A stretch of 45,019 nucleotides of DNA from Escherichia phage vB_EcoS-22664B1: the sequence record MZ234008.1; one strand, 5' to 3'. Positions 1-45,019 of this stretch are shown here, one piece after another (position 1 is the stretch's first letter; every line of letters starts with the position of its first letter). The notes below the pieces were generated by a model, which saw nothing but the letters and a program-made list of their open reading frames with translations, searched no databases and had not been told where the DNA came from. The translations under genes and the position numbers were made by a program.

Positions 1-74
1 ATGGTGAGTGAAAAATGCAGTTTGCAGTTACAGCAGATAGGGATCGGCTTTTTCATACGCATGATTAATATTGG

Positions 75-103
75 TTGCATTCAGCCTAGCACCCTGCTAG
101 ATT
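75..103 (+). promoter_or_regulatory. putative sigma70-like promoter for left-end genes (-35 TTGCAT, 17-nt spacer, -10 TAGATT) flanked by two TTGGTTGCA copies
   Basis: Motif copies at 71-79 and 102-110; hexamers read directly. Confidence 0.35.
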
Positions 104-131
104 GGTTGCACACCAACATGAGGACTGAACA

Positions 132-3265: not shown

Positions 3266-3295
3266 CTTGACTTGCAACCAACATAAGGGCCATAC
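3266..3295 (+). promoter_or_regulatory. putative sigma70-like promoter (-35 TTGACT, 18-nt spacer containing TGCAACCAA, -10 CATACT)
   Basis: Hexamer matches read from sequence; spacer carries the recurrent GCAACCAA motif, with a second copy just downstream. Confidence 0.35.
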
Positions 3296-3327
3296 TGCAA
3301 CCAATCAACGAGAAGGAGTAATACACT

Positions 3328-3470: not shown

Positions 3471-4668
3471 ATGCACCCGCAAACTAAAATTACCGACGAG
3501 CAATTGATCGCTGAATTGCAATCTGGCACTACCTCGAAAGATATTGCGAAGAAATACGGCATTGCCCTTCGAAATGTCTATATGCGCAAAGCCCGCCTGT
3601 CGAAGAAAGGCATTGGTCACGGTAACGATGCCGTAATCCGTAAGCGCGTTGCCGATGGCTTCGGCGTTAAGCGTGTATCAGCCCTGGTGCGCGGCAATGG
3701 CGAAGAGGTCATGTCCTGGGTCATCACCGAGCAAGACAAGGAGCGCCAGCTTGAAGCAATGCGCGCCGTTGTCGAGGGCATGAATAGCGAAATCACACCG
3801 GCAGCACCAGTGAGCGCTCCGCCAGTCCCGATCCAGGCGCTTGACCTGCTTAACCTGTATACCGTGTCGGACTTCCACCTGGGAATGTTGGCGTGGGGCG
3901 AGGAGACTGGCGAGGACTGGGATATGGCAATCGCTGAAGACCTGTTCTACCGCTGGTTTGTCGAAGCCTTCGCCCGCGCACCGGACGCTGGAAGACCTGT
4001 TCTACCGCTGGTTTGTCGAAGCCTTCGCCCGCGCACCGGACGCTGGCACTGCCGTAATCAATATTCTCGGTGATATGGCGCATTTTGACAGCCTCGACGC
4101 CGTCACGCCAGCCAGTGGTCACGTACTGGACGCAGATACCCGCTACCAGAAACTGGTCCGCTACATGATTCGCATGGTGCGCAACGTGGTTGAACTGGCG
4201 CTGCAAAAACACCATAAGGTCAAACTGTTAATCGTCCAGGGTAATCATGATGAGTCCGGTATGATTTGGCTGGCTGAGATGTTCAATACCCTGTACGAGA
4301 ACGAGCCGCGCGTTGATGTGGACACGTCCCCGGACGTTTACAAAATGGTGCAGCACGGTAAAACAACGCTGTTCTTCCACCACGGACACAAAGCACGCTT
4401 TGACGCCATCGAACCGGTCATGATTTCTAAATTCAGACAGGCTTTCGGGTCCAGTGAGTACAGCTACGCGCACGTGGGCCACTTGCACCACCAGAAGATT
4501 GTTGAATCCCGCAACATGATTGTTGAACAGCACCGGACCCTTGCCGCGAAAGACGCATATGCGAGCCGCGGCGGTTGGATGTCTGGTCGTAGTGCTAACG
4601 TCATCACCTATAGCGCCAACTACGGCGAAGTAGCGCGCTTAACCATTAGCCCGGAAATGTTGAAATGA
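3471..4668 (+). pseudogene. HTH domain + calcineurin-like metallophosphoesterase gene, split by a 55-bp tandem duplication (frameshift)
   Basis: N-terminal HTH-like segment; metallophosphoesterase motifs SDFHLG, GDMAHFD, GNHDE, HHGH, GHLHH. ORFs 3471..4073 and 3841..4668 are the same gene in two frames; removing one 55-bp copy (3936-3990 or 3991-4045) restores one ORF of about 380 aa. Confidence 0.6.
3936..4045. repeat. perfect tandem duplication, 2 x 55 bp
   Basis: Unit gaagacctgttctaccgctggtttgtcgaagccttcgcccgcgcaccggacgctg occurs twice in tandem; cgctg microhomology at the junction. Confidence 0.9.
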
Positions 4669-4884: not shown

Positions 4885-4910
4885 AGCCCGCCGATTTGGT
4901 GGGCTTTTTT
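4885..4910 (+). terminator. rho-independent terminator
   Basis: agcccgcc / ggtgggct stem (one G-U) followed by TTTTTT. Confidence 0.5.
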
Positions 4911-4994
4911 GTGCCTGTTATAATCCCCCTTAGATGGCTGGGCCGTCTCCTATGTTGCCGATGGTCGGCGCATATGCATAAAAGGGCTTATATC

Positions 4995-5546
4995 ATGGCA
5001 GAAATCAAAGTTAAGGGCCGTCGTGCCAAACTGGACGGACGAGTAGCAGTTACCCCGCGCCGTAAACCAGGCGAGCAAACAGAACACACCAATCTTGGAC
5101 CAGAGATCGAATACGGCAAGCGTCGTAAAGGCGGCAAATGCGGACGCCCGACCGACTACCGCACCGTGTATTGTGACCAGCTTCGTCGCTATTTCGCCGA
5201 TGCCGTAGCCTGGCAGATCAACTACTCCGACAAGGGCGCTGCGCAAGTCATCCCTCGAAACATGATGCCGACTCTCGGTCGATTCGCTGCAAATATTGGT
5301 GTAGGCATCGCCTGCCTGTATCGCTGGGCGCGCGCACATGAGGAGTTCGCCGAAGCGATGGCGGACGCTATGGAGTTGCAGAAAACTTTCCTGATGGAAG
5401 CTGGCGGCGTGACCATCGCGGCGGGCTTCGCTACGTTCCTGCTTAAAGCCAACCACGGCATTCGTGACGATGCGCCGCTGGATGACGACGAAGATGATAA
5501 CGGCGACGTCGTTGTGGAACCTACCGGCAAAGGCCAGGGTGAGTAA
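4995..5546 (+). CDS. terminase small subunit (putative)
   Basis: Position immediately upstream of TerL with overlapping stop/start; basic N-terminal region, acidic C-terminus; assignment mainly by synteny. Confidence 0.5.
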   Translation: MAEIKVKGRRAKLDGRVAVTPRRKPGEQTEHTNLGPEIEYGKRRKGGKCGRPTDYRTVYCDQLRRYFADAVAWQINYSDKGAAQVIPRNMMPTLGRFAANIGVGIACLYRWARAHEEFAEAMADAMELQKTFLMEAGGVTIAAGFATFLLKANHGIRDDAPLDDDEDDNGDVVVEPTGKGQGE

Positions 5547-6931
5547 TGCGTAACTATGCGGCAGAACACCGCGCACTTGAACGCGCGATCGCAAAGCGCA
5601 ACCGACCGCCACGCCCTACGCGCGTTGCGCAGGCCGTCCGCCTGTATCAGCCTGATTGCCTTCCGCACCAGGTAGAACTGCTGCGCGACACGAAGACTAA
5701 AATCCTCGGCCTTTGCTCCGGCTTCGGTGGCGGAAAGTCGTGGGTAGCGGCGCGTAAGGTCATCCAGCTTCTCACACTTAACCCCGGTCATGATGGCATC
5801 GTTACAGAACCGACTATTCCACTCCTGGTTAAAATCATGTACCCGGAGCTTGAGAAGGCATTCGACGAGGCTGGATTCCGGTGGAAGTTCAACAAGCAAG
5901 ACAAGATTTATAGCGTGCTGGTGAAAGGCAAATGGACCCGCGTTATTTGTGAGTCAATGGAGAACTACACCCGCCTGATCGGGGTTAACGCCGCGTGGAT
6001 TGTTGCCGATGAGTTCGACACCACTAAGCAAGACGTAGCTATGGCGGCATATCACAAATTGCTTGGTCGTCTGCGTGCGGGCCTGGTGCGCCAGTTCGTC
6101 ATCGTATCCACGCCTGAAGGCTTCCGGGCGATGTACCAGATTTTCGAAGTGGAGAAGGATAGCCAGAAACGTTTGATCAGGGCGAAGACTACCGATAATC
6201 ACCACTTACCGGCAGACTTTATCGACACGCTGCGGAGCCAGTACCCGGCAAACCTGATTGATGCATACCTGAACGGCCTGTTTGTCAACCTTACGTCTGG
6301 CGCGGTCTACAAGATGTTTAACCGCGAAGAGAACGCCAGCACCGAGGAAGTGCAACCGGATGATACGCTGATTATCGGTATGGACTTTAACGTAACGAAA
6401 ATGGCGGCGGTTGTGTACGTCAGACGGCAGCACACTACCGAGAACAAGGAGTTCCGCGACGAGATTCACGCAGTGGATGAATTCGTGGACCTGTTTGATA
6501 CCCCGGCTATGATTGAGGCGATCGAGGAGCGCTACCCCGATCATTGTGCTGCCGGTCGGGTCGTCGTTTACCCGGATAGCAGTGGCAAGTCTCGTAAGAC
6601 TGTTAACGCATCGTCGTCCGATATCGCGCAACTGGAAGACGCTGGCTTCGAGGTGGAGTATGACAGCGTCAACCCGCCTGTAAAAGACAGATTGATCGCG
6701 ATGAATACGATGATGTGCAACTCGAAGGGCGTGCGCCAGTATTTTGTCAACATGGATAAATGCCCTACACTAGCGAAATGTCTGGAACAGCAGGTTTATG
6801 ACCTGAAGAAAGGCGAGCCGGATAAAACCGCCGGTGTGGACCACATGAACGATGCCGCAGGCTACCCTGTTGCGCACCTGTTCCCAGTGATTCGTCCAAT
6901 CGCCGTTGTTCCAACTGTAGACTTCTACTAA
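5546..6931 (+). CDS. terminase large subunit
   Basis: Walker A-like LCSGFGGGKS and Walker B-like IVADEFD ATPase motifs plus C-terminal nuclease-sized domain; 461 aa. Confidence 0.85.
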   Translation: MRNYAAEHRALERAIAKRNRPPRPTRVAQAVRLYQPDCLPHQVELLRDTKTKILGLCSGFGGGKSWVAARKVIQLLTLNPGHDGIVTEPTIPLLVKIMYPELEKAFDEAGFRWKFNKQDKIYSVLVKGKWTRVICESMENYTRLIGVNAAWIVADEFDTTKQDVAMAAYHKLLGRLRAGLVRQFVIVSTPEGFRAMYQIFEVEKDSQKRLIRAKTTDNHHLPADFIDTLRSQYPANLIDAYLNGLFVNLTSGAVYKMFNREENASTEEVQPDDTLIIGMDFNVTKMAAVVYVRRQHTTENKEFRDEIHAVDEFVDLFDTPAMIEAIEERYPDHCAAGRVVVYPDSSGKSRKTVNASSSDIAQLEDAGFEVEYDSVNPPVKDRLIAMNTMMCNSKGVRQYFVNMDKCPTLAKCLEQQVYDLKKGEPDKTAGVDHMNDAAGYPVAHLFPVIRPIAVVPTVDFY

Positions 6932-9850: not shown

Positions 9851-9983
9851 ACCGCCTTGCACCTTTGAGAATGCCTCGGCAGATCCAGACGAGGACTTGC
9901 TTGTTGATGTTAAAAATATGGAATGCGGGGCTAAGCTGAGGGCGCAAGTGCTGGAGTTGCAGAAAATAATTCGGGGGCCGTAA
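9753..9983 (+). CDS. o-spanin (Rz1-like outer-membrane lipoprotein) candidate
   Basis: Signal peptide with lipobox LSAC (MLRVLTVLIVVLMLSAC), proline-containing mature part; starts inside the i-spanin gene in another frame and extends past its stop. Confidence 0.55.
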   Translation: MLRVLTVLIVVLMLSACGSSKAPSTPLTESVYRPPCTFENASADPDEDLLVDVKNMECGAKLRAQVLELQKIIRGP

Positions 9984-9996
9984 TGGCCCCCTTTTT
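9973..9996. terminator. bidirectional rho-independent terminator (gggggcc gtaat ggccccc + T-run)
   Basis: Stem-loop with T5 on + strand; lies between convergent genes 9753..9983 (+) and 9998..10762 (-). Confidence 0.65.
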
Positions 9997-9997
9997 G

Positions 9998-10791: not shown

Positions 10792-10821
10792 AATATAGTG
10801 CAACCAATACCTGGATTGCAA
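10792..10821 (-). promoter_or_regulatory. putative sigma70-like promoter (-35 TTGCAA, 18-nt spacer with TTGGTTGCA, -10 TATATT) for 9998..10762
   Basis: Read on - strand; same architecture as promoter at 30187-30216 (shared block tatagtgcaaccaa ... ttgcaag ... aattttgc). Confidence 0.4.
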
Positions 10822-15662: not shown

Positions 15663-15686
15663 GGGGCCAGCACGGCCCCTTTTTTA
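15663..15686 (+). terminator. rho-independent terminator (ggggcc agcac ggcccc + T-run)
   Basis: Member of a near-identical terminator family (also at 9973, 25641, 28981). Confidence 0.65.
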
Positions 15687-16064: not shown

Positions 16065-16378
16065 TTGAGGCGGCGCGACGCTTTTATGGCCCGCCGCCAC
16101 CCTCCGAAGATTTAGCCGCTAGTTTATGGGGTGCGGCCCCCGAGGATGTTTGTCCACCTGTTGCGCTATGGCCCGACAACGCGAAGATAGTCGCCGTATT
16201 CACAGATTGCTCTACGCAATGGCGCACCGGATTCGGTGGGGCATACGGCATCGACTACGGCGTTCTGGAGTGGCTATTTAAGATGCACGGCATCGAAAAC
16301 GAGCAACGTGCATTTAAAGATATCAAGCTAATGGAGCGAATCGCGCTTGATGAAATGGCGCAACAAAACCCCGCATAA
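15687..16378 (+). CDS. tail assembly chaperone frameshift product (lambda GT-like), via -1 frameshift at 16055-16061
   Basis: The -1 frame is open from 16055 to TAA at 16376-16378 (107 codons, translated manually); slippery heptamer A AAA AAC sits at the end of the G ORF. Confidence 0.6.
16055..16061 (+). promoter_or_regulatory. -1 programmed ribosomal frameshift slippery heptamer A_AAA_AAC
   Basis: Heptamer in correct phase (zero-frame codons AAA AAC) immediately before the G stop codon. Confidence 0.6.
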
Positions 16379-16720
16379 TGAAGCGGGACAAAACGGGACG
16401 TCCCGCTTTGTCCCGTTTTGTCCCGCCACCTGCAAAACTGCATACCTACTCACTTTCATTGCATAAACTCAAAGCGGGACGAGCGGGACGTCCCGATCCG
16501 TCCCGCCCCCTAAATGTGCATACCTATTCAGATTTCGTGCATAAAACAAACGGGACAGAAAGCGGGACAAACATGGGGCGGGACAAAGCGGGACAGCACC
16601 CCGTCCCCGTCAGTGCTGCCGCGGGTTTCAGCCGATCGGGACAAGCGGGACAAACCCCAGTCTTTCAGACTAGACGGGGGTCAATGGCCCCCCTCGTCTG
16701 AGACTGAATAAGGTTTGTTT
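16378..16720. repeat. non-coding repeat region A: GGGAC palindromes, GCGGGACA iterons, TGCATA(A) repeats and conserved GC hairpin
   Basis: GCGGGACA at 16383, 16562, 16578, 16588, 16645; palindrome centred on GGGACGTCCC near 16397; about 165 bp (16548-16710) is about 85% identical to 44770-44937. Confidence 0.85.
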
Positions 16721-25640: not shown

Positions 25641-25665
25641 AAGGGGCCATCCGGCCCCTTTTTTA
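25641..25665. terminator. rho-independent terminator (aggggcc atcc ggcccct + T-run), between convergent genes
   Basis: Stem-loop with T6 on + strand; the - strand gene 25663..26637 ends right beside it. Confidence 0.65.
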
Positions 25666-28980: not shown

Positions 28981-29004
28981 AGGGGCCGTACGGCCCCTTT
29001 TTTA
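28981..29004 (+). terminator. rho-independent terminator (aggggccg ta cggcccct + T-run)
   Basis: Perfect stem-loop plus T6; the - strand gene 29002..29577 ends here. Confidence 0.7.
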
Positions 29005-30186: not shown

Positions 30187-30216
30187 ACTATAGTGCAACC
30201 AACCTATTGGTTGCAA
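30187..30216 (-). promoter_or_regulatory. putative sigma70-like promoter (-35 TTGCAA, 18-nt spacer, -10 TATAGT) overlapping palindrome TGCAACCAA-ccta-TTGGTTGCA
   Basis: Read on - strand; perfect 9-bp inverted repeat at 30194-30216 inside the spacer region. Confidence 0.4.
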
Positions 30217-32101: not shown

Positions 32102-32135
32102 AAGATAATGCAACCAATCTAATTACGCAACCAAT

Positions 32136-32459
32136 TTATTCATAAAAATTTGGGTCGCGCGCTACGTCTACCAGATACAAGTTGCTCATGCGGTTGCCGT
32201 AGTGCCCTGGCGTGCGCTGGCGGCACACAACGGCGAAACCTGGAGGGATTGTATTGCCCGTCTCGATAATCCACGCCACGCGCGCGCCAGACAGCGTCTT
32301 GCCGTTGCATTCGATACGCGTACCGCCATCGGCAGTGTTAAGGTTGCCAATCTTGCAGCCGGTAGACTTCAGACGGATGACGCCGGTCTTACTGTCGTAG
32401 GTGAATAGTTGGTTAGTCATTGCTACCGAGAAGTCGATGGCTTCGAATGTAGTATTCAT
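32136..32459 (-). CDS. HNH-like endonuclease (putative)
   Basis: Motif ...ARVAWIIETGNTIPPGFAVV...GNRMSNLYLV resembles the HNH/AP2-type homing endonuclease pattern (G..IP.G..V.H.DG...NN...NL.LV) but lacks a clear His-Asp pair. Confidence 0.35.
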   Translation of the reverse strand: MNTTFEAIDFSVAMTNQLFTYDSKTGVIRLKSTGCKIGNLNTADGGTRIECNGKTLSGARVAWIIETGNTIPPGFAVVCRQRTPGHYGNRMSNLYLVDVARDPNFYE

Positions 32460-37981: not shown

Positions 37982-37993
37982 TTTTCATTGTCC

Positions 37994-38020
37994 TAATAAA
38001 AAGCCCGCAATAAGCGGGCT
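37994..38020 (-). terminator. rho-independent terminator on - strand (agcccgc ... gcgggct + U-run)
   Basis: On - strand the hairpin is followed by TTTTATT; sits directly after the in-frame stop of the SSB tail frame (38040-38042). Confidence 0.55.
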
Positions 38021-38039
38021 TGAATAGTGGGCTTTGCCC

Positions 38040-38773
38040 TTAACGGCGGCGACGTTTACGTGGTGCTTCGTCTTCGTCGTCGTCGTCCTCGTCTTCGTCA
38101 TCACGACGTTTGGACTTCTTAGCCTTGCGCGGTGCTTCATCTTCGTCATCGTCATCACGACGTTTGGACTTCTTAGCCTTGCGCGGTGCTTCATCTTCGT
38201 CATCGCGTCGCCCAGGTCGTCATCGGAACAAGAAGACCCGCCGCCACCGAAGGAGTCACCATCGTCACGGAAGCGAAGACCCATCAAACCCGCACCTAGA
38301 CCTTTGCCGTTGGTGTTGTTCCACGCCCAAATATCCAGGGACACGTTGCAATAACAACCGGAATAGATTTCCTGGCCTTCGATCTCGTCGCCGTCGATAG
38401 TCAGACCCTGTTCGGTCTGCTTCTCGCCCAGTGACGTTTGGATGTTAGGCTGTTTGAACGATTTGGCGTTGATGTACAACATTCCTTCGAATTCTTCGGT
38501 TACTTCGTCGCGCTCGTCACCGTCGCGAACTGCGCATTCCTTAGAATCCTGGGCGTAGTGGCGGTCCATCCACTTATCGGCGTTCTTCTCGGATTTCAGC
38601 TTGTCGGTAAGCACTGCGCGCGCTGCCGCTTCCACTTTGTCCACCTGCGGATCTTCTTTATCAAGAAGAATCACGGCACGGTATGCCGGTTTTTGTCCAT
38701 CCTGTTTAGGGGTATCACGTTCCCAAATTTTCAGGAAGCATACGCGTACATTTTTCAGGTTGACTTTAGCCAT
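38040..38773 (-). CDS. ssDNA-binding-protein-like (T7 gp2.5 / DUF2815-like) with charged repeat tail; -1 frame discontinuity near 38200-38219
   Basis: Body (start MAKVNLKNVRV, GAGGA RBS-like) is in the ORF-track frame. The C-terminal tail (DDEDEAPRKAKKSKRR x2 then DDEDEDDDDEDEAPRKRRRR) is in another frame ending at TAA 38040-38042; its third module differs from the first two only by synonymous changes in that frame. Confidence 0.5.
38098..38205. repeat. perfect tandem duplication, 2 x 54 bp, inside SSB-like tail
   Basis: Unit tcatcacgacgtttggacttcttagccttgcgcggtgcttcatcttcgtcatcg repeated head-to-tail; a degenerate third copy lies at about 38044-38097. Confidence 0.9.
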
Positions 38774-38836
38774 TTTCATTTCCTCATTTCGCATGTATCG
38801 GGGTTATTGTGAGCCACCCCGTTCGGCTTGGTTGCT

Positions 38837-38865
38837 AATTTACTTGGTTGCGCCTAAGCGGTCAA
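38837..38865 (-). promoter_or_regulatory. putative sigma70-like promoter (-35 TTGACC, 17-nt spacer with GCAACCAAG, -10 TAAATT) upstream of SSB-like gene
   Basis: Read on - strand; a second GCAACCAAG copy lies just downstream of the -10. Confidence 0.4.
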
Positions 38866-41144: not shown

Positions 41145-41663
41145 TTAATCTTCTAATTCGAAATAAGTTTCGACGATTGCTTTTAATTCCTGGTGGAACT
41201 CTTCCACGTCGTCATCTTCCAGCTTGGCAACGGATTTAATTTCGAATTCTTCCAGCAGGTCGTCAAATTCGTCGTTTGCGTCGTCGTCATCACCGCCAGC
41301 AATAATAGCGGCATACTGCTTGATTTCGTCGCGCATCTCTTTCAGCGGATCGGCATCTTTCTTGCCTTTACCTTTCGCCGGTGCTTTCTTAGATTTCGCC
41401 GGGGCTTCTTCTTCGTCGTCCGCGTCGTCTTCTTCTACGGCTTCTTTCTTAGCCTTGCCCTTTGCTGGCGCTTTTTTTGTCTTAGCCGGTGCTTCGTCTT
41501 CAGCGTCGTCATCTTCGACTACTTCTTCTTTTGCCTTGCCCTTAGCCGGGGCTTTCTTCGCTTCCTGTTTACCAACGGCAGCGCCAGCAGTTTCATAATG
41601 CTTAGCGATGGTTTCCAGTGCTACTACGCCGCGTGTGATCAGGTTTACGATTTGCTCAAACAT
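41145..41663 (-). CDS. charged-repeat protein (172 aa; repeated DEAPAK-KKAPAKGKAKK modules), first gene of leftward early operon
   Basis: Start MFEQIVNLITRG with GGAGA RBS-like sequence; internal nucleotide repeats 41363-41550 encode alternating acidic/basic modules. Confidence 0.55.
   Translation of the reverse strand: MFEQIVNLITRGVVALETIAKHYETAGAAVGKQEAKKAPAKGKAKEEVVEDDDAEDEAPAKTKKAPAKGKAKKEAVEEDDADDEEEAPAKSKKAPAKGKGKKDADPLKEMRDEIKQYAAIIAGGDDDDANDEFDDLLEEFEIKSVAKLEDDDVEEFHQELKAIVETYFELED
41363..41550. repeat. imperfect tandem repeats (about 66-bp unit, about 2.5 copies) within charged-repeat gene
   Basis: Units containing cttagccggtgcttcgtcttc...gtcgtcatcttc recur; they encode the charged protein repeats. 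Confidence 0.7.
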
Positions 41664-41859
41664 TGTATATCTCCGATTGGTTAAGTTTAGGTGTCGGCAG
41701 TCAACTTCGTCGGTGGCCTTAACATAGTGCCAGGTTACGCGTTCTCCCTTTCGGGTAGTGGACCTGGTTATATAATCACGGTTGGGAATCCTGACACTTC
41801 GATCCGGCCCCTGCGTTGCCCCTCTCCAGTTTGCGTCCTGCATCCTGTCGACGGAGTGA

Positions 41860-42066: not shown

Positions 42067-42396
42067 ATGCATATCAACGACGCAATCGAAATGTTAACTA
42101 AGACCGTTAGTTGTGAGACAAGCCGGTCCTGGGCTTATACCGATGCCGTTGGTGCGGCGTTATTTGAAATCGAACGCCTGCGCAGTGTCGAAAAAGAATT
42201 GCGCGCCAAGCTGGAATTACTCAACGGTACGGCAGCAAGCAAGCTGCAAAAACACAATGAAGAAATGGAAGAATACAAAAAGCAGGTTATCCGTTTACGC
42301 GACGAGGGCAAGTCCTGGGCGATGATTGCCGAGTTGACCGGAATTAATCAGAGCACCGTGCGCTCCTGGGTACGCAATAATAAAACTTCTAAGTAA
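42067..42396 (+). CDS. HTH DNA-binding protein (putative transcriptional regulator)
   Basis: C-terminal helix-turn-helix-like segment SWAMIAELTGINQSTVRSWVRN; coiled-coil-like middle; AGGAGA RBS-like sequence. Confidence 0.55.
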   Translation: MHINDAIEMLTKTVSCETSRSWAYTDAVGAALFEIERLRSVEKELRAKLELLNGTAASKLQKHNEEMEEYKKQVIRLRDEGKSWAMIAELTGINQSTVRSWVRNNKTSK

Positions 42397-42406
42397 GGCA
42401 ACGGCA

Positions 42407-44671
42407 ATGAGCTTAATTAAATTCGCAGTAACAAGACCCGCTAAAAAAGGCGAAAAAGCCAGGGCGGAAAACTTCGAGATGACCACTGATGAGTTTTTCG
42501 AATTTATCAATGATGCGAAAGAAATCTCCTCGGTGCACATCAACAAGACTGAAGATAAAGCCGAGTATGCGCGCCGCAAGCGTAAGGCCGATGGCATCGT
42601 GGCCTATACCAATGATGGGTTACGCCGCAAGACCAGTGCGGTCGACCGCTCGATCCTGTTCTTCGATATTGACCGCACCGACACCCGCACATTACGCCGC
42701 TGCCGTAAAGCGTTCACCGACGCTGGTCTGGAGCATGTATTCCACACCACGACCGGCGACCGTCACCCACTGAAAGGCGGCACACGTTGCGCCCGTTTCC
42801 TGGTGCTCACTGACAAGCCTGTACCGGCTGAAGACCTGGGCCGCGTCCAGTATGCGCTATTAGACCAACTGGGCCTGTCAGATGTGGACTTCGACGATTG
42901 TACGAAAGACACCAACCGCCTTATGTACCTGCCTCACCAGCAGTCTGTCATAAAGTGCCACTATGGAAAGCGCGCCCGTGTCCGTCGTCTGCTTCGCCTG
43001 GCTGACAAGCTGGGAGTGGAGAAAGAGGAAGTGCGCCGCGAACTGACCCAGGGCGCCGATGGCGTGGCGGACGGCATTCTGGATTGGTGCTTCCAGGCTG
43101 GCTTTGAACCACTGTCATCCGGTCGCGGTTATGAAGTGCCTTGCCCGAACGAGCACCTGCATAGCGGCGGCGGGTCGACGGCTATCATGGTTAAGGATGG
43201 CGAGATCCGTTTCAAGTGTATGCACACCGGCAACGAATGCTGTTCCGAACTGAATAAACACCAGCACCTGGCGTTACGTCTGATTGGTATCCCGGACCAC
43301 TTGAACGTCGAGCCACACAACATGTCACGCAAGCAAATCGCCGCCATCCTTCCGGGACTGGACGACGAGGAAGTGGAATCGTGCTATGAACATATTGTTG
43401 ATGCGGTCGGAGACGGCGACGAGTACGGCGAATGCACCGACGCTGACCTGGACAACGAGCCGGTCGCTCTGTTCAGTAAGCACGACCCGATTATCGAAGG
43501 CCTGGTCAACTTCAAATCTACCTGGTATATGGCGGGTGAGTCGAACATTGGTAAGTCGTTCTACGTGCTGGGCCAGATGGGCGCTGTTGCCGCGGGGATT
43601 CCGTTCGGTGGCGCGAAGGTCGTCCAGTCGCATTGCTTCTATTTCGATGCGGAAGGTGGCGAAGCCTCCAACCAGCGTAAGGAAGCATTGCAGATTAAAT
43701 ACGAGCACGACCTCGACAAGCTGCACATTATCGACCTGCAATCACGCGGCTGGGATATTACCAGCAAGTCAGGCTTGCGCGAGGTTATCAGCTTTATCAA
43801 CCGCACCGCTAACGGGGAGCCGGTTGGCCTGGTGGCCTTCGACTCACTCAACCAGACTGTAGCGCTGCGGTCCGCTGATGCCAAACCGTTCGACGAGAAC
43901 AACGCAAGCGATATGGGTGAAGTGGTCAAAGCGCTGAAGTCCATTGCGGAAAATACAGGCGGCAGTGCGGGCGTCATCCATCACCCGGCTAAGGGTGCAA
44001 ACGGCAGCAGATCCCCACGCGGGTCCGGCGCGCTTCATGGTGCTGTCGATTCTGCGTTCTTCCTGGAACAGCCGGACGATAATCAGCCAGGCCAACTCAA
44101 CCTGTATCACGAAAAATCCCGTAACGGCATCAAGCAAGCGCCGCGTGGCTTCGTCCTGCTCAAGTGCAAGGTTAAGGTGGATCTCCGCAAGTCTGATGCG
44201 TTCGAAGCCCACCAATCCACCAGCACCGGGCCAGACTTCGGTGATGTGGTTGCCGGTTGGGACGTCAAGCCAATTGCATCTACACCACGCGACGAGACTC
44301 TTTACCTCGTACCGGTCGCCCTGGCACCGTTCGCTATCGAACAGGCTAAGGCAGCAGGCAAGGCAGCAGTTAAGGAAGAGAACACCGCCGGACCGCGCAA
44401 CGAGAAAGAGAAGGTGCTTTATGCGGCACTGGAAAAACTGATGGAAGATAACCCGGACCATACTGGATTCAGTAAATCGGCAATTGTCCGCCAGGCTGGA
44501 CTTGCGAAAGGTGGCACATCGACGAAGGCAATTGACGATATGGTGGAGCGCGGCGTGCTCGGGTTTTATACAGATCCACACACCGGGGCCATCTATGGGT
44601 CGTCGAATCTGGTCATCAAATCGGATATACCCATCACGCTTTCAGCGACCGATGATGACTTAAAAGATTAA
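42407..44671 (+). CDS. DNA primase/helicase (N-terminal primase-like domain, C-terminal RecA/DnaB-like ATPase)
   Basis: N-terminal acidic motif LFFDIDRTD; C-terminal Walker A GESNIGKS and Walker B-like LVAFDSLN, plus HHPAKG; 754 aa. Confidence 0.75.
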   Translation: MSLIKFAVTRPAKKGEKARAENFEMTTDEFFEFINDAKEISSVHINKTEDKAEYARRKRKADGIVAYTNDGLRRKTSAVDRSILFFDIDRTDTRTLRRCRKAFTDAGLEHVFHTTTGDRHPLKGGTRCARFLVLTDKPVPAEDLGRVQYALLDQLGLSDVDFDDCTKDTNRLMYLPHQQSVIKCHYGKRARVRRLLRLADKLGVEKEEVRRELTQGADGVADGILDWCFQAGFEPLSSGRGYEVPCPNEHLHSGGGSTAIMVKDGEIRFKCMHTGNECCSELNKHQHLALRLIGIPDHLNVEPHNMSRKQIAAILPGLDDEEVESCYEHIVDAVGDGDEYGECTDADLDNEPVALFSKHDPIIEGLVNFKSTWYMAGESNIGKSFYVLGQMGAVAAGIPFGGAKVVQSHCFYFDAEGGEASNQRKEALQIKYEHDLDKLHIIDLQSRGWDITSKSGLREVISFINRTANGEPVGLVAFDSLNQTVALRSADAKPFDENNASDMGEVVKALKSIAENTGGSAGVIHHPAKGANGSRSPRGSGALHGAVDSAFFLEQPDDNQPGQLNLYHEKSRNGIKQAPRGFVLLKCKVKVDLRKSDAFEAHQSTSTGPDFGDVVAGWDVKPIASTPRDETLYLVPVALAPFAIEQAKAAGKAAVKEENTAGPRNEKEKVLYAALEKLMEDNPDHTGFSKSAIVRQAGLAKGGTSTKAIDDMVERGVLGFYTDPHTGAIYGSSNLVIKSDIPITLSATDDDLKD

Positions 44672-44759
44672 ATTTTGCGCGCATTGGTTGCCATTTTGAG
44701 TGTTTTTAGCTGGTCGCATTGGTTGCCGTGTAGTGTAAATATAGTGAATAGTTATGCAG

Positions 44760-44940
44760 TTTTATTGCATAAAGTAAGCGGGACAAAAAGCGGGACAGAC
44801 AGGGGGCGGGACAAGGCGGGACAGCACCCCCGTCCCGCCCCGGATTACGCGGCTTGCGGGGGAGCGGGACAGGCGGGACAAACCCCAGTCTTTCAGACTA
44901 GACGGGGGTCAGTTGGCCCCCTCGTCTGAGACTGCATAAA
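44760..44940. repeat. non-coding repeat region B: GCGGGACA iterons, inverted GGGAC and conserved GC hairpin (homologous to 16548-16710)
   Basis: GCGGGACA at 44778, 44789, 44806, 44816, 44864, 44873; the 3' 60 nt is nearly identical to region A. Confidence 0.85.
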
Positions 44941-45019
44941 ATCCGGGATTGCATAATACACGGCAACATGATGTGAATTGCGGTCGTTGATGAACTAGGC
45001 AACCAATGCGAGTTGTATT

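What the first reader, a model, noticed from the sequence alone, without database searches (positions are those of the whole stretch)
44760..44940. Second copy of the GGGACA-iteron element, next to the primase-helicase gene and at the window end
Six GCGGGACA iterons within 100 bp plus the conserved hairpin lie immediately downstream of the primase-helicase gene, an arrangement compatible with an origin next to its initiator. If the genome is circularly permuted or concatemeric, this element would also sit just upstream of the left-end promoter at 75-103, so it may double as an upstream control region for the left arm.
Basis: partly seen in the sequence, partly recalled or inferred. Interest (0 to 1): 0.7.

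Follow-up and report, generated by a model that had tools for sequence, protein, structure and literature searches.

The report
Iteron replication origin beside phage primase-helicase
The repeat cluster just after the primase-helicase gene of this E. coli phage (genus Dhillonvirus) is most likely the phage's replication origin, read by a DNA-binding domain at the end of that same protein; this is a known kind of origin, seen here in a phage group where it has not been described.

Summary
Six GCGGGACA words lie at 44778-44880, with a seventh inverted copy at 44832-44839 and a conserved hairpin at 44886-44934. They start 107 nt after the primase-helicase stop codon. The window is a complete, circularly permuted Dhillonvirus genome, so its end does join position 1.

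The key evidence is comparative. Phages whose primase-helicase is 43-68% identical carry an element of the same layout at the same place: an AT-rich box region, direct iterons, inverted iterons, two more iterons, then a hairpin. The iteron word differs by lineage (GGGACA, GGGAGA, GGGATA, GGGATG, CGGACA, CCGACA).

The word tracks only the C-terminal winged-helix domain of the primase-helicase. Proteins 94-99% identical elsewhere drop to 45-49% in that domain exactly when the word changes. DNA homology breaks at the start of the domain and resumes just after the hairpin.

The protein is an AEP primase, a zinc finger, a RepA-type helicase and a winged helix. The best reading is an iteron origin bound by its own self-loading initiator, like SaPI Rep-ori or P4 alpha-ori.

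This copy is the ancestral one. The copy at 16383-16711 is a Dhillonvirus-specific addition. No experiment supports origin activity. The repeat regions themselves were already flagged in the GenBank record of Sodalis phage SO-1.

The parts
42067..42396 (+). Small HTH protein gene (109 aa) upstream of the primase-helicase. It is a candidate repressor of the replication operon, not the iteron reader.
   Evidence: Pfam HTH_23 and Sigma70_r4_2. In relatives the upstream HTH protein is 93-100% identical across three different iteron classes.
42407..44671 (+). Primase-helicase (754 aa): an AEP primase (about residues 1-200), a Cys/His zinc finger (about 246-290), a RepA/DnaB-type helicase (357-600), a linker, a winged helix (about 666-738) and an acidic tail (DDDLKD).
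44402..44620 (+). Coding region of the C-terminal winged-helix domain, the proposed iteron reader.
44681..44731 (+). Two CGCATTGGTTGCC boxes (TTGGTTGC at 44684 and 44719). They belong to a box family found at 12 or more intergenic sites and are probable operator or promoter elements.
   Evidence: Motif scan.
44728..44777 (.). AT-rich box region: GTGAATAGTTAT (44744-44755), the palindrome TTATGCA-N7-TGCATAA (44752-44772), and (G/T)TG(A/C)ATA boxes phased 21 bp apart. It is a candidate DNA-unwinding element.
   Evidence: Third least stable 50-bp window of the genome, 26% GC. The GTGAATAGTTAT boxes are kept in relatives at the same place.
44778..44823 (+). Four direct iterons GCGGGACA (44778, 44790, 44806, 44816).
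   Evidence: The cores are invariant and the spacers variable in 19 orthologous copies.
44832..44839 (-). One inverted iteron (GTCCCGCC). It forms a palindrome with iteron 3.
   Evidence: Relatives have one or two inverted iterons at this position.
44864..44880 (+). Two further direct iterons (44864, 44873).
44886..44934 (.). Conserved three-tier imperfect hairpin. It includes the mini-hairpin AGTCT-TTC-AGACT.
   Evidence: The arms are invariant and the loop variable within Dhillonvirus. Other lineages have different arm sequences that stay complementary.
44999..45011 (-). Inverted ATTGGTTGCC box. It closes the intergenic region before the join to window position 1.
70..110 (+). Two ATTGGTTGCA boxes that bracket the promoter-like TTGCAT-N17-TAGATT of the left arm. 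They are contiguous with the element across the permutation point.
   Evidence: The site does not pass the sigma-70 consensus scan.
16383..16711 (+). Region A, the paralogous larger cluster, between the tail chaperone genes and the tape-measure gene. It holds 16 iterons (10 direct, 6 inverted) in three modules, and the last module carries the same hairpin.
   Evidence: It is conserved as its own orthologous lineage (A-A 94.6%, A-B 85%).

Best explanation
The element at about 44728-44934 is the phage's iteron-type replication origin, sitting directly downstream of the gene for its initiator. The 754-aa primase-helicase is a single-polypeptide initiator made of an AEP primase, a zinc finger, a RepA/DnaB-type hexameric helicase and a C-terminal winged helix.

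Proposed mechanism:
- The winged-helix domains of the oligomer bind the seven GGGACA iterons (inferred from co-variation).
- This distorts and opens the adjacent AT-rich box region at 44728-44777 (inferred).
- The helicase loads itself on the exposed strand (inferred by analogy with SaPI Rep and P4 alpha).
- The AEP domain lays down the first primer, possibly at the conserved hairpin, which would act like a single-strand initiation signal (speculative).
- The phage's family-A polymerase and gp2.5-like SSB then take over.

The larger cluster in the tail operon (region A, 16383-16711) is a second binding region for the same protein. It could be a second origin, a looping partner like P4 crr, or a fork-arrest site like SPP1 oriR. 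Which of these applies cannot be told.

Shown: the anatomy, the conservation, the domain folds and the modular co-variation. Inferred: binding, melting, loading and priming.
For: - Enrichment and conservation. There are 14 GCGGGACA against 2.35 expected. Iteron cores and hairpin arms are invariant while spacers and the loop vary in 19 B and 17 A copies, with no codon periodicity.
- Same layout in other lineages. An element of the same layout follows the primase-helicase stop codon in phages whose protein is 43-68% identical, each with its own iteron word: GGGACA, GGGAGA, GGGATA, GGGATG, CGGACA or CCGACA.
- Cassette swaps. L196 (GGGAGA) and L185 (CGGACA) are 95, 96, 97 and 94% identical in the primase, zinc-finger, helicase and linker parts but 45% in the winged helix. 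L192 (CGGACA) and L194 (CCGACA) are 99, 99, 98 and 92% against 49%. Pairs with the same word on different backbones keep the winged helix (L186-L203 84%).
- Break points. Nucleotide homology stops at residue about 665 and resumes just after the hairpin.
- Other candidate readers excluded. The upstream HTH protein is 93-100% identical across three iteron classes, and no other gene lies in the swapped segment.
- AT-rich tract. The tract abutting the iterons is the third least stable 50-bp window of the genome.
- Precedents. SaPI Rep/PriRep read 6-12 penta- or hexanucleotide iterons immediately downstream of rep through a C-terminal winged helix (PMC9371898). P4 alpha and pRN1 ORF904 are similar cases (PMC4234260). 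SPP1 has two origin-like regions, one of them inside the late genes (PMC6316719).
Against: - There is no experimental evidence of binding or origin activity for any member.
- The winged-helix coding segment and the iterons are physically adjacent, so part of their co-inheritance could be plain linkage.
- One pair of winged helices is 70% identical yet goes with different words (L187 GGGATA against L186 CCGACA). Specificity would then rest on a few residues.
- Iteron spacing varies from 8 to 12 bp between strains, so there is no strict helical phasing.
- In Dhillonvirus the AT-rich tract lies at one edge of the iterons, not between them as in SaPI.
- Four relatives (L181, L182, L188, L190) have the winged helix but no such element downstream.
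- The cumulative GC-skew minimum is at about 41.9 kb, the divergent promoter region, not at the element. Skew here follows transcription direction.
- Winged-helix folds are generic; RPA32C, for example, is a protein-binding one.
Confidence: 0.6

Rival explanations
1. The element acts as RNA. It would be a structured, cis-acting or small RNA transcribed with or after the primase-helicase mRNA. The repeated GGGA-containing words would bind an RNA-binding protein (a sponge or regulator), and the hairpin would act as a processing, stabilising or termination signal.
For: All direct iterons are on the sense strand in both copies and in all lineages. The region folds better than shuffles as RNA (z = -3.9 for B, -2.2 for A). 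Every iteron word keeps a GGA- or GGGA-like core. The hairpin is kept by complementary changes between lineages. The variable 8-12 nt spacing would suit a reader of single-stranded RNA.
Against: There is no Rfam match even at E = 1 for region B, and only chance miRNA hits far below threshold for region A. The hairpin folds as well or better on the minus strand in 7 of 11 cases, so there is no sign of sense-strand G-U wobble. No U-tract follows the hairpin and no consensus promoter precedes it. The iteron word co-varies with a winged-helix domain of a replication protein, which an RNA-only role does not explain. Sense-strand orientation is fixed by synteny and so carries no information.
Confidence: 0.1
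2. The element is a transcriptional control region only. The iterons would be operators through which the primase-helicase, or another factor, blocks read-through from the early replication operon or regulates the left-arm promoter. Region A would do the same in front of the tape-measure gene. There would be no origin function.
For: The element lies between two transcription units and is flanked by ATTGGTTGC boxes that recur at 12 or more intergenic or promoter sites. Region A lies shortly after an intrinsic terminator at 15664-15686 and before the tape-measure gene. In a Kagunavirus the GTGAATAGT boxes overlap a good sigma-70 promoter next to a Cro-like gene. Iteron-binding initiators often autoregulate (general knowledge).
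Against: The iterons lie downstream of the initiator gene, not at its promoter. The layout of AT-rich tract, iterons in both orientations and initiator gene alongside is the classic origin layout (PMC9371898). The upstream HTH regulators do not track the iteron class. Regulation and origin function are not exclusive.
Confidence: 0.15
3. The region encodes a small protein, as several GenBank records annotate it: an 84-aa ORF at 44675-44929 and a 107-aa ORF at 16378-16701.
For: One frame is free of stop codons across the iteron-hairpin segment in all 38 copies examined. Records such as MZ234014 and Bas85 annotate 'hypothetical protein' here.
Against: There are no Pfam or PHROG hits. Variation falls in blocks (spacers and loop), not at third codon positions. 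Length variants of 167, 168, 169 and 170 nt are not multiples of three. An open frame is expected in GC-rich repeats. Many records annotate nothing here, and SO-1 annotates a repeat region.
Confidence: 0.03
4. The element is a packaging (pac) recognition site or a selfish mobile repeat that has copied itself to two places.
For: There are two copies per genome. Repeat arrays occur in some pac sites (P1 and SPP1; general knowledge). Packaging is headful with a preferred pac site (PMC13348001).
Against: The terminase genes are at 4896-6931, far from both copies. Both copies are at fixed orthologous positions in all genomes examined, and A-A and B-B identity (94.6% and 91%) exceed A-B identity (85%). 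This means an old duplication without spread or gene conversion. The element is absent from 5,426 E. coli genomes. Its linkage to the primase-helicase across genera argues for a replication role.
Confidence: 0.04

Closest known systems
SaPI (Staphylococcus aureus pathogenicity island) Rep / PriRep with its ori
   Same: The initiator is a helicase with a C-terminal winged helix that reads short penta- or hexanucleotide iterons. Six to twelve iterons lie immediately downstream of the initiator ORF, an AT-rich stretch is part of the origin, and iterons occur in both orientations. In SaPI5 the primase and helicase are fused. Specificity differs between elements (PMC9371898). Here there are seven 5-8 nt iterons starting 107 nt after the stop codon, a fused primase-helicase with a winged helix, and lineage-specific words.
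   Different: The helicase here is RecA-type (Pfam AAA_25, the RepA/DnaB kind), not the SF3/AAA+ kind. In Dhillonvirus the AT-rich tract is at the edge of the array rather than its centre. A conserved long hairpin follows the iterons. The host is a virulent enterobacterial siphovirus. A second, larger cluster exists elsewhere in the genome.
Phage P4 alpha protein with ori and crr
   Same: One polypeptide combines primase, helicase and a C-terminal winged-helix origin-binding domain. Octamer iterons occur in two separate regions of the genome, ori and crr (general knowledge; the winged helix and repeats are cited in PMC4234260).
   Different: The P4 primase is of the TOPRIM type and its helicase is SF3. 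Here the primase is AEP and the helicase is AAA_25. The two regions are 28 kb apart (16.8 kb the other way round the circle), against 4.5 kb in P4. Whether region A is needed in cis is unknown.
Bacillus phage SPP1 oriL / oriR
   Same: It is a 44-kb pac-type siphovirus with two origin-like regions of direct repeats plus AT-rich DNA. One lies at the initiator gene. The other interrupts the late structural genes and is proposed to stall forks and trigger the switch to concatemer synthesis (PMC6316719). Region B and region A here have that same distribution.
   Different: The SPP1 initiator gp38 is a separate origin-binding protein that works with a loader and a DnaB-type helicase. oriL lies inside gene 38, not after it. 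There is no sequence or protein homology.
Plasmid RSF1010 oriV with RepA, RepB' and RepC
   Different: In RSF1010 there are three separate proteins, and the iteron reader is RepC. Here one polypeptide would do all three jobs. Priming at the hairpin is only a guess here.
Archaeal plasmid pRN1 orf56 / orf904 replicon
   Same: The gene order is a small repressor gene, then a multifunctional AEP primase-helicase-winged-helix protein, then a stem-loop of about 100 nt downstream that is required for replication (PMC4234260).
   Different: pRN1 has an SF3 helicase and no iterons.
'Region A' and 'region B' repeat_region features of Sodalis phage SO-1 (GQ502199)
   Same: They are the same two loci, annotated in the SO-1 GenBank record as consisting of direct, inverted and palindromic repeats with mutual similarity.
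   Different: It is an annotation note only, and its last words were cut off in the output I saw. I found no analysis of what reads the repeats, and no paper in the searched library discusses them.

Membership tests
Iteron origin next to a self-loading initiator helicase with a C-terminal winged helix (SaPI Rep-ori type) | The initiator carries a helicase domain and a C-terminal winged-helix domain. | tested here: met
Iteron origin next to a self-loading initiator helicase with a C-terminal winged helix (SaPI Rep-ori type) | Six to twelve short (5-6 nt) iterons lie immediately downstream of the initiator ORF. | tested here: met
   Seven GGGAC(A) iterons at 44778-44880; the stop codon ends at 44671.
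Iteron origin next to a self-loading initiator helicase with a C-terminal winged helix (SaPI Rep-ori type) | An AT-rich region lies in the centre, with at least two iterons on each side pointing in opposite directions. | tested here: inconclusive
   An AT-rich tract is present and very unstable, but it lies at the 5' edge of the array in the window. Relatives L196, L203 and L185 do have iterons on both sides of it. Only one inverted iteron is present in region B.
Iteron origin next to a self-loading initiator helicase with a C-terminal winged helix (SaPI Rep-ori type) | Each initiator is specific for its own iterons, and the specificity lies in the winged helix. | tested here: met
   This was tested in silico only. 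Six iteron classes track winged-helix identity and not the rest of the protein, and the swap borders lie at the start of the domain and the end of the hairpin. The HTH proteins do not track the classes. Physical binding was not testable.
Iteron origin next to a self-loading initiator helicase with a C-terminal winged helix (SaPI Rep-ori type) | The helicase belongs to the SF3/AAA+ class. | tested here: not met
   The only Pfam hit is AAA_25 (the RecA-type RepA/DnaB family). PHROG links are to DnaB-like and primase/helicase families.
Iteron origin next to a self-loading initiator helicase with a C-terminal winged helix (SaPI Rep-ori type) | The fragment supports initiator-dependent replication. 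| not testable with these tools
   This needs a plasmid origin assay or marker-frequency analysis.
P4 alpha / ori / crr | A TOPRIM primase fused to an SF3 helicase and a winged helix. | tested here: not met
P4 alpha / ori / crr | The same iterons occur in two separate cis regions. | tested here: met
   CGGGAC clusters occur only at 16.4-16.7 kb (13 in 250 nt) and at 44.8 kb (7) in the window and in four other Dhillonvirus genomes.
P4 alpha / ori / crr | The second region is required in cis for replication. | not testable with these tools
   This needs deletion genetics.
SPP1-type dual origin (oriL / oriR) | There are two repeat-plus-AT-rich regions, one at the initiator gene and one inside the late gene cluster. 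| tested here: met
   Region B follows the initiator gene. Region A lies between the tail chaperone genes and the tape-measure gene.
SPP1-type dual origin (oriL / oriR) | A separate origin-binding protein works with a helicase loader and a DnaB-type helicase. | tested here: not met
   A single fused primase-helicase-winged-helix protein is present, and relatives annotate no loader gene.
Known RNA families (Rfam 15) | A match to a covariance model at or near its gathering score. | tested here: not met
   There is no hit at gathering score in the whole window and none at E <= 1 in 44600-45019. Region A gives only miRNA models at 18-22 bits against thresholds of 77-103.

The most novel reading that the evidence does not exclude
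A widespread group of enterobacterial siphoviruses (Dhillonvirus plus Cornellvirus- and Kagunavirus-like Guernseyvirinae) may replicate from an origin read by a single self-loading polypeptide of a type not yet described: an AEP primase, a zinc finger, an SF4/RepA-type helicase and a winged helix. Its specificity would be carried by an exchangeable cassette of winged helix, iterons and hairpin that recombines between phages. This could let co-infecting relatives keep replication private, or escape defences that target the origin or the initiator. In Dhillonvirus the cassette's DNA half was duplicated and expanded to 16 iterons inside the tail operon, where it could act as an SPP1-oriR-like switch from theta to concatemer replication.
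Probability: 0.35. Interest if true: 0.6.

Novelty: new member of a known kind. Interest (0 to 1): 0.45.

Why it matters
Dhillonviruses and their Guernseyvirinae relatives are common coliphages and Salmonella phages. They are used in phage collections such as BASEL, in defence-system studies and in therapy candidates, yet I found no paper in the searched library that describes their origin of replication.

A defined origin with a cognate reader domain would allow several things. Minimal replicons and engineered phages could be designed. It could explain incompatibility or interference between co-infecting relatives. It could also be checked whether defence systems sense the initiator.

The cassette swaps are a clear natural example of co-evolving protein-DNA specificity, comparable to the lambdoid O/ori and SaPI Rep/ori modules. 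They offer six ready-made pairs for studying how a winged helix changes its target word.

The finding also corrects database annotation. The 'hypothetical protein' ORFs drawn over both repeat regions are almost certainly not genes.

Tried and rejected
- Rfam at gathering score on the whole window and at E <= 1 on both regions gave nothing meaningful.
- The sigma-70 promoter and intrinsic terminator scans around both copies and at the window start stayed at shuffle level.
- GC skew simply follows transcription direction, with a minimum at about 41.9 kb and a maximum at about 29 kb. It cannot locate an origin here.
- The test for concerted evolution between copies A and B was not significant (85.2% within genomes, 84.6% between, p = 0.06).
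- The coding reading of the overlapping ORFs was rejected.
- The upstream HTH protein as iteron reader was rejected. It has no homologue in GRNsp27, and in other lineages an identical HTH goes with three different iteron words. An extra 81-aa ORF in L194 is unique to that locus.
- RNAalifold on a MAFFT alignment of hairpins from different lineages failed because the arms are too different to align by sequence. I used per-lineage folds instead.
- The IMG/VR scan for GCGGGACA-N(1-6)-GCGGGACA returned mostly unrelated GC-rich contigs.
- The sequence-only PDB search with the whole protein gave nothing. Low-threshold Pfam on the N- and C-terminal parts also gave nothing.
- The plasmid search found only a Kagunavirus-like 44-kb record filed as a plasmid. 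E. coli genomes gave no match.
- Literature searches found no paper that discusses these repeats.

Full report
**What the window is.** The last 720 bases are 100% identical to Escherichia phage vB_EcoS-101114B2. About 150 Dhillonvirus records match them at 85-98%. The window is a whole genome of this genus of HK578/SO-1-like virulent E. coli siphoviruses. In the circular record of phage Bas85 the window's last 1500 bases and first 132 bases align as one uninterrupted stretch (95.8%). Published PhageTerm analyses report headful packaging for the genus (PMC9022532, PMC13348001). The window ends are therefore arbitrary, and position 45019 is followed by position 1.

**The observation.**
- GCGGGACA occurs 14 times against 2.35 expected. 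Six copies are on the + strand at 44778-44880.
- A seventh copy is inverted (GTCCCGCC, 44832-44839).
- A 49-nt imperfect hairpin follows at 44886-44934.
- A 196-nt stretch (44744-44939) is 82% identical to 16516-16711. There the last seven iterons have the same spacing as here: 12, 16, 10, 13, 35 and 9 nt against 12, 16, 10, 14, 34 and 9.
- That other region (A, 16383-16711) is larger. It has 16 iterons in three modules and lies between the tail chaperone genes and the tape-measure gene.
- Immediately upstream of the region-B iterons is an AT-rich segment (44728-44777, 26% GC). It is the third least stable 50-bp window of the genome. It contains GTGAATAGTTAT, a 21-bp palindrome TTATGCA-N7-TGCATAA, and (G/T)TG(A/C)ATA boxes 21 bp apart.

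**It is not a gene and not a known RNA.** Several records annotate 'hypothetical protein' ORFs over both regions. These ORFs have no Pfam or PHROG match. Across 19 B and 17 A orthologous copies the iteron cores and hairpin arms never vary, while spacers and the loop do. There is no codon periodicity, and length variants are not multiples of three. Rfam finds nothing in region B even at E = 1. In region A it gives only chance miRNA hits far below threshold. The GenBank record of Sodalis phage SO-1 already marks both loci as repeat regions A and B. I found no paper that analyses them.

**The neighbouring protein.** The 754-aa 'primase-helicase' (42407-44671) has four recognisable parts:
- A RepA/DnaB-type AAA_25 core at residues 357-531.
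- A conserved acidic tail, DDDLxD.

**The decisive comparison.** I collected loci that encode relatives of this protein. A homologous non-coding element follows the stop codon in most of them.
- The order of parts is the same: operator-like boxes, GTGAATAGTTAT boxes in AT-rich DNA, three or four direct iterons, one or two inverted iterons, a linker containing GGGTTT...GCCGA, two more direct iterons, then a long three-tier hairpin.
- The iteron word is lineage-specific. It is GCGGGACA in Dhillonvirus and in a 68%-identical lineage. It is GGGGAGA in Salmonella phage GRNsp27 and loci L180 and L196, and CGGACAA in L185, L192 and L193. It is CCGACA in L186, L194 and L203, GGGATAA in L187 and GGGATGA in L204.
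- The hairpin arms also differ by lineage but stay complementary. Examples are CAGTCT/AGACTG, AGTCTTAG/CTAAGACT, ATCATCTA/TAGATGAT and ATCCTC/GAGGAT. All fold better than shuffles (DNA z from -2.2 to -5.0). In several lineages the hairpin loop carries an inverted iteron.

**What tracks the iteron word.** Domain-by-domain identities show clean cassette swaps.
- L196 (GGGAGA) and L185 (CGGACA) are 95, 96, 97 and 94% identical in the primase, zinc-finger, helicase and linker parts, but 45% in the winged helix.
- L192 (CGGACA) and L194 (CCGACA) are 99, 99, 98 and 92% identical, against 49% in the winged helix.
- Phages with the same word on different backbones keep the winged helix (L186-L203 84%, L185-L192 66%).
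- At the DNA level, homology between L192 and L194 ends at locus position 4495, which is residue about 665 and the start of the winged helix. It resumes at about 5058-5077, just after the hairpin. L196 against L185 behaves the same way.
- The swapped segment holds no other gene.
- The HTH protein encoded just upstream is 93-100% identical in phages with three different words (L194, L204, L192). It diverges among phages that share a word. In Dhillonvirus it belongs to a different HTH family altogether.
- Each iteron class has its own signature at the start of the predicted recognition helix, for example KGGT-(S/N)T(K/T)A for GGGACA and KGGD-RYKI for GGGAGA.

**Interpretation.** The simplest account is that the winged helix of the primase-helicase reads the iterons, and that the element is the origin at which this protein assembles, opens the AT-rich tract, loads itself and primes. 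This is the logic established for three systems:
- SaPI Rep/PriRep: a C-terminal winged helix and 6-12 penta- or hexanucleotide iterons immediately downstream of rep, with an AT-rich stretch (PMC9371898).
- P4 alpha: a winged helix that binds origin repeats (PMC4234260).
- pRN1: a repressor gene, then an AEP primase-helicase-winged-helix gene, then a required stem-loop downstream.

The hairpin may be a single-strand initiation signal in the manner of RSF1010 ssiA with RepB'. That step is a guess.

**Which copy came first.** The complete genome of GRNsp27 has a single iteron cluster, the one after the primase-helicase. The 68%-identical lineage showed a single hairpin-core match in its contig. 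So region B is ancestral, and region A is a Dhillonvirus-specific, expanded duplicate. A and B do not homogenise each other: identity is 85.2% within genomes and 84.6% between, p = 0.06. Each is conserved as its own lineage (A-A 94.6%, B-B 91.0%). Both copies therefore look as if they are under selection. The distribution, with one copy at the initiator gene and one inside the late genes, matches SPP1 oriL and oriR. In SPP1 the second site is thought to stall forks and trigger the switch to concatemer synthesis (PMC6316719). It also recalls P4 ori and crr. I cannot tell which role region A plays.

**Caveats.**
- Nothing here has been tested at the bench.
- The winged-helix coding DNA and the iterons are neighbours, so linkage contributes to their co-inheritance. 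The coincidence of the break points with the domain border and the hairpin end is what argues for a functional unit, together with the re-assortment on different backbones.
- One winged-helix pair is 70% identical yet goes with different words (L187 and L186).
- Iteron spacing varies from 8 to 12 bp between strains.
- Four relatives have the winged helix but no element downstream (L181, L182, L188, L190).
- GC skew is uninformative.

**The RNA reading.** It is not excluded, but it is weakened in three ways. The hairpin folds as well or better on the antisense strand in 7 of 11 cases. No terminator tail follows the hairpin and no promoter consensus precedes it. The iteron word co-varies with a replication protein domain.

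**Verdict.** The origin reading is supported in silico. The 'upstream control region' idea remains untested. In kind this is a new member of the iteron-origin, self-loading-initiator class, with an unusual protein architecture (AEP primase plus RecA-type helicase plus winged helix) and a neat modular specificity cassette.

Noticed in passing
window 3936-4045: A perfect 55-nt tandem duplication lies inside a gene that is intact in relatives (Bas85_0070, 1143 nt, annotated 'DNA repair exonuclease'). In the window the gene is split into ORFs 3471-4073 and 3841-4668. The total span is 1198 nt, which is 1143 + 55. This is either a frameshifting duplication or an assembly artefact.
   Followed up: partly
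window 70-110, 3281-3311, 10793-10814, 26915, 30202-30214, 32117-32141, 35075, 38828-38851, 41868, 44684, 44719, 45006: ATTGGTTGC(A/C) boxes, often in pairs, recur at intergenic and promoter regions on both strands. The box ATTGGTTGCACACCAACA(A)TGAGGAC forms a shared leader at positions 101 and 10793. They are probably the operators or promoter elements of the early genes. Relatives have different box words at the same places (ATGTTGGCTG, TTGCGAGT).
   Followed up: partly
window 44752-44772, and the same site in relatives: The 7-nt spacer of the palindrome TTATGCA-N7-TGCATAA is GTTTTAT in some strains and its exact reverse complement ATAAAAC in others. This is a small flip of the kind produced at hairpin loops.
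   Followed up: no
window 9975-9997, 15664-15686, 25643-25665, 28982-29004: This is a family of near-identical intrinsic terminators (GGGCC-N4-GGCCCC followed by a T-run). They lie after the head-morphogenesis block, the major tail protein, the tail-tip protein and the tail fibre gene.
   Followed up: no
window 16383-16511: The upstream part of region A consists of two near-perfect iteron palindromes (2 direct plus 3 inverted, then 2 direct plus 2 inverted GGGAC). Each is followed by GTGCATA boxes phased 21 bp apart. Region A is therefore three tandem, degenerate origin-like modules, and only the last carries the hairpin.
   Followed up: partly
loci L181, L182, L188, L190 (IMG/VR; primase-helicase 43-44% identical): These relatives keep the winged helix but lack the iteron-hairpin element. 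A terminator and genes on the opposite strand follow the primase-helicase. Their origin, if it is of the same type, must lie elsewhere.
   Followed up: no
loci L131, L174, L175 (primase-helicase 49% identical): The region downstream of the primase-helicase carries six or more TTGCGAGT/ACTCGCAA words in both orientations, and a different hairpin instead of GGGA-type iterons. It is unclear whether these are iterons or operators.
   Followed up: no
window 44654-44668 (last residues of the primase-helicase) and all relatives: The acidic C-terminal tail (D/E)DDL(x)(D/E/N) is conserved in all relatives. It recalls the acidic tail of T7 gp4 that contacts the polymerase. The phage also encodes a gp2.5-like SSB and a family-A polymerase.
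   Followed up: no
PLSDB record CP088689.1 (E. coli, 44,086 bp): This record is filed as a plasmid but encodes a Kagunavirus-type primase-helicase (34% identity over 97% of the query). By size and content it is probably a phage genome.
   Followed up: no
window 38053-38210 and 41176-41558 (minus-strand ORFs 37985-38794 and 41145-41843): Tandem 54-87-nt repeats are rich in GTC/TTC on the + strand. On the minus strand they would encode acidic and lysine-rich repeats in two early proteins, one of them the gp2.5-like SSB region.
   Followed up: no
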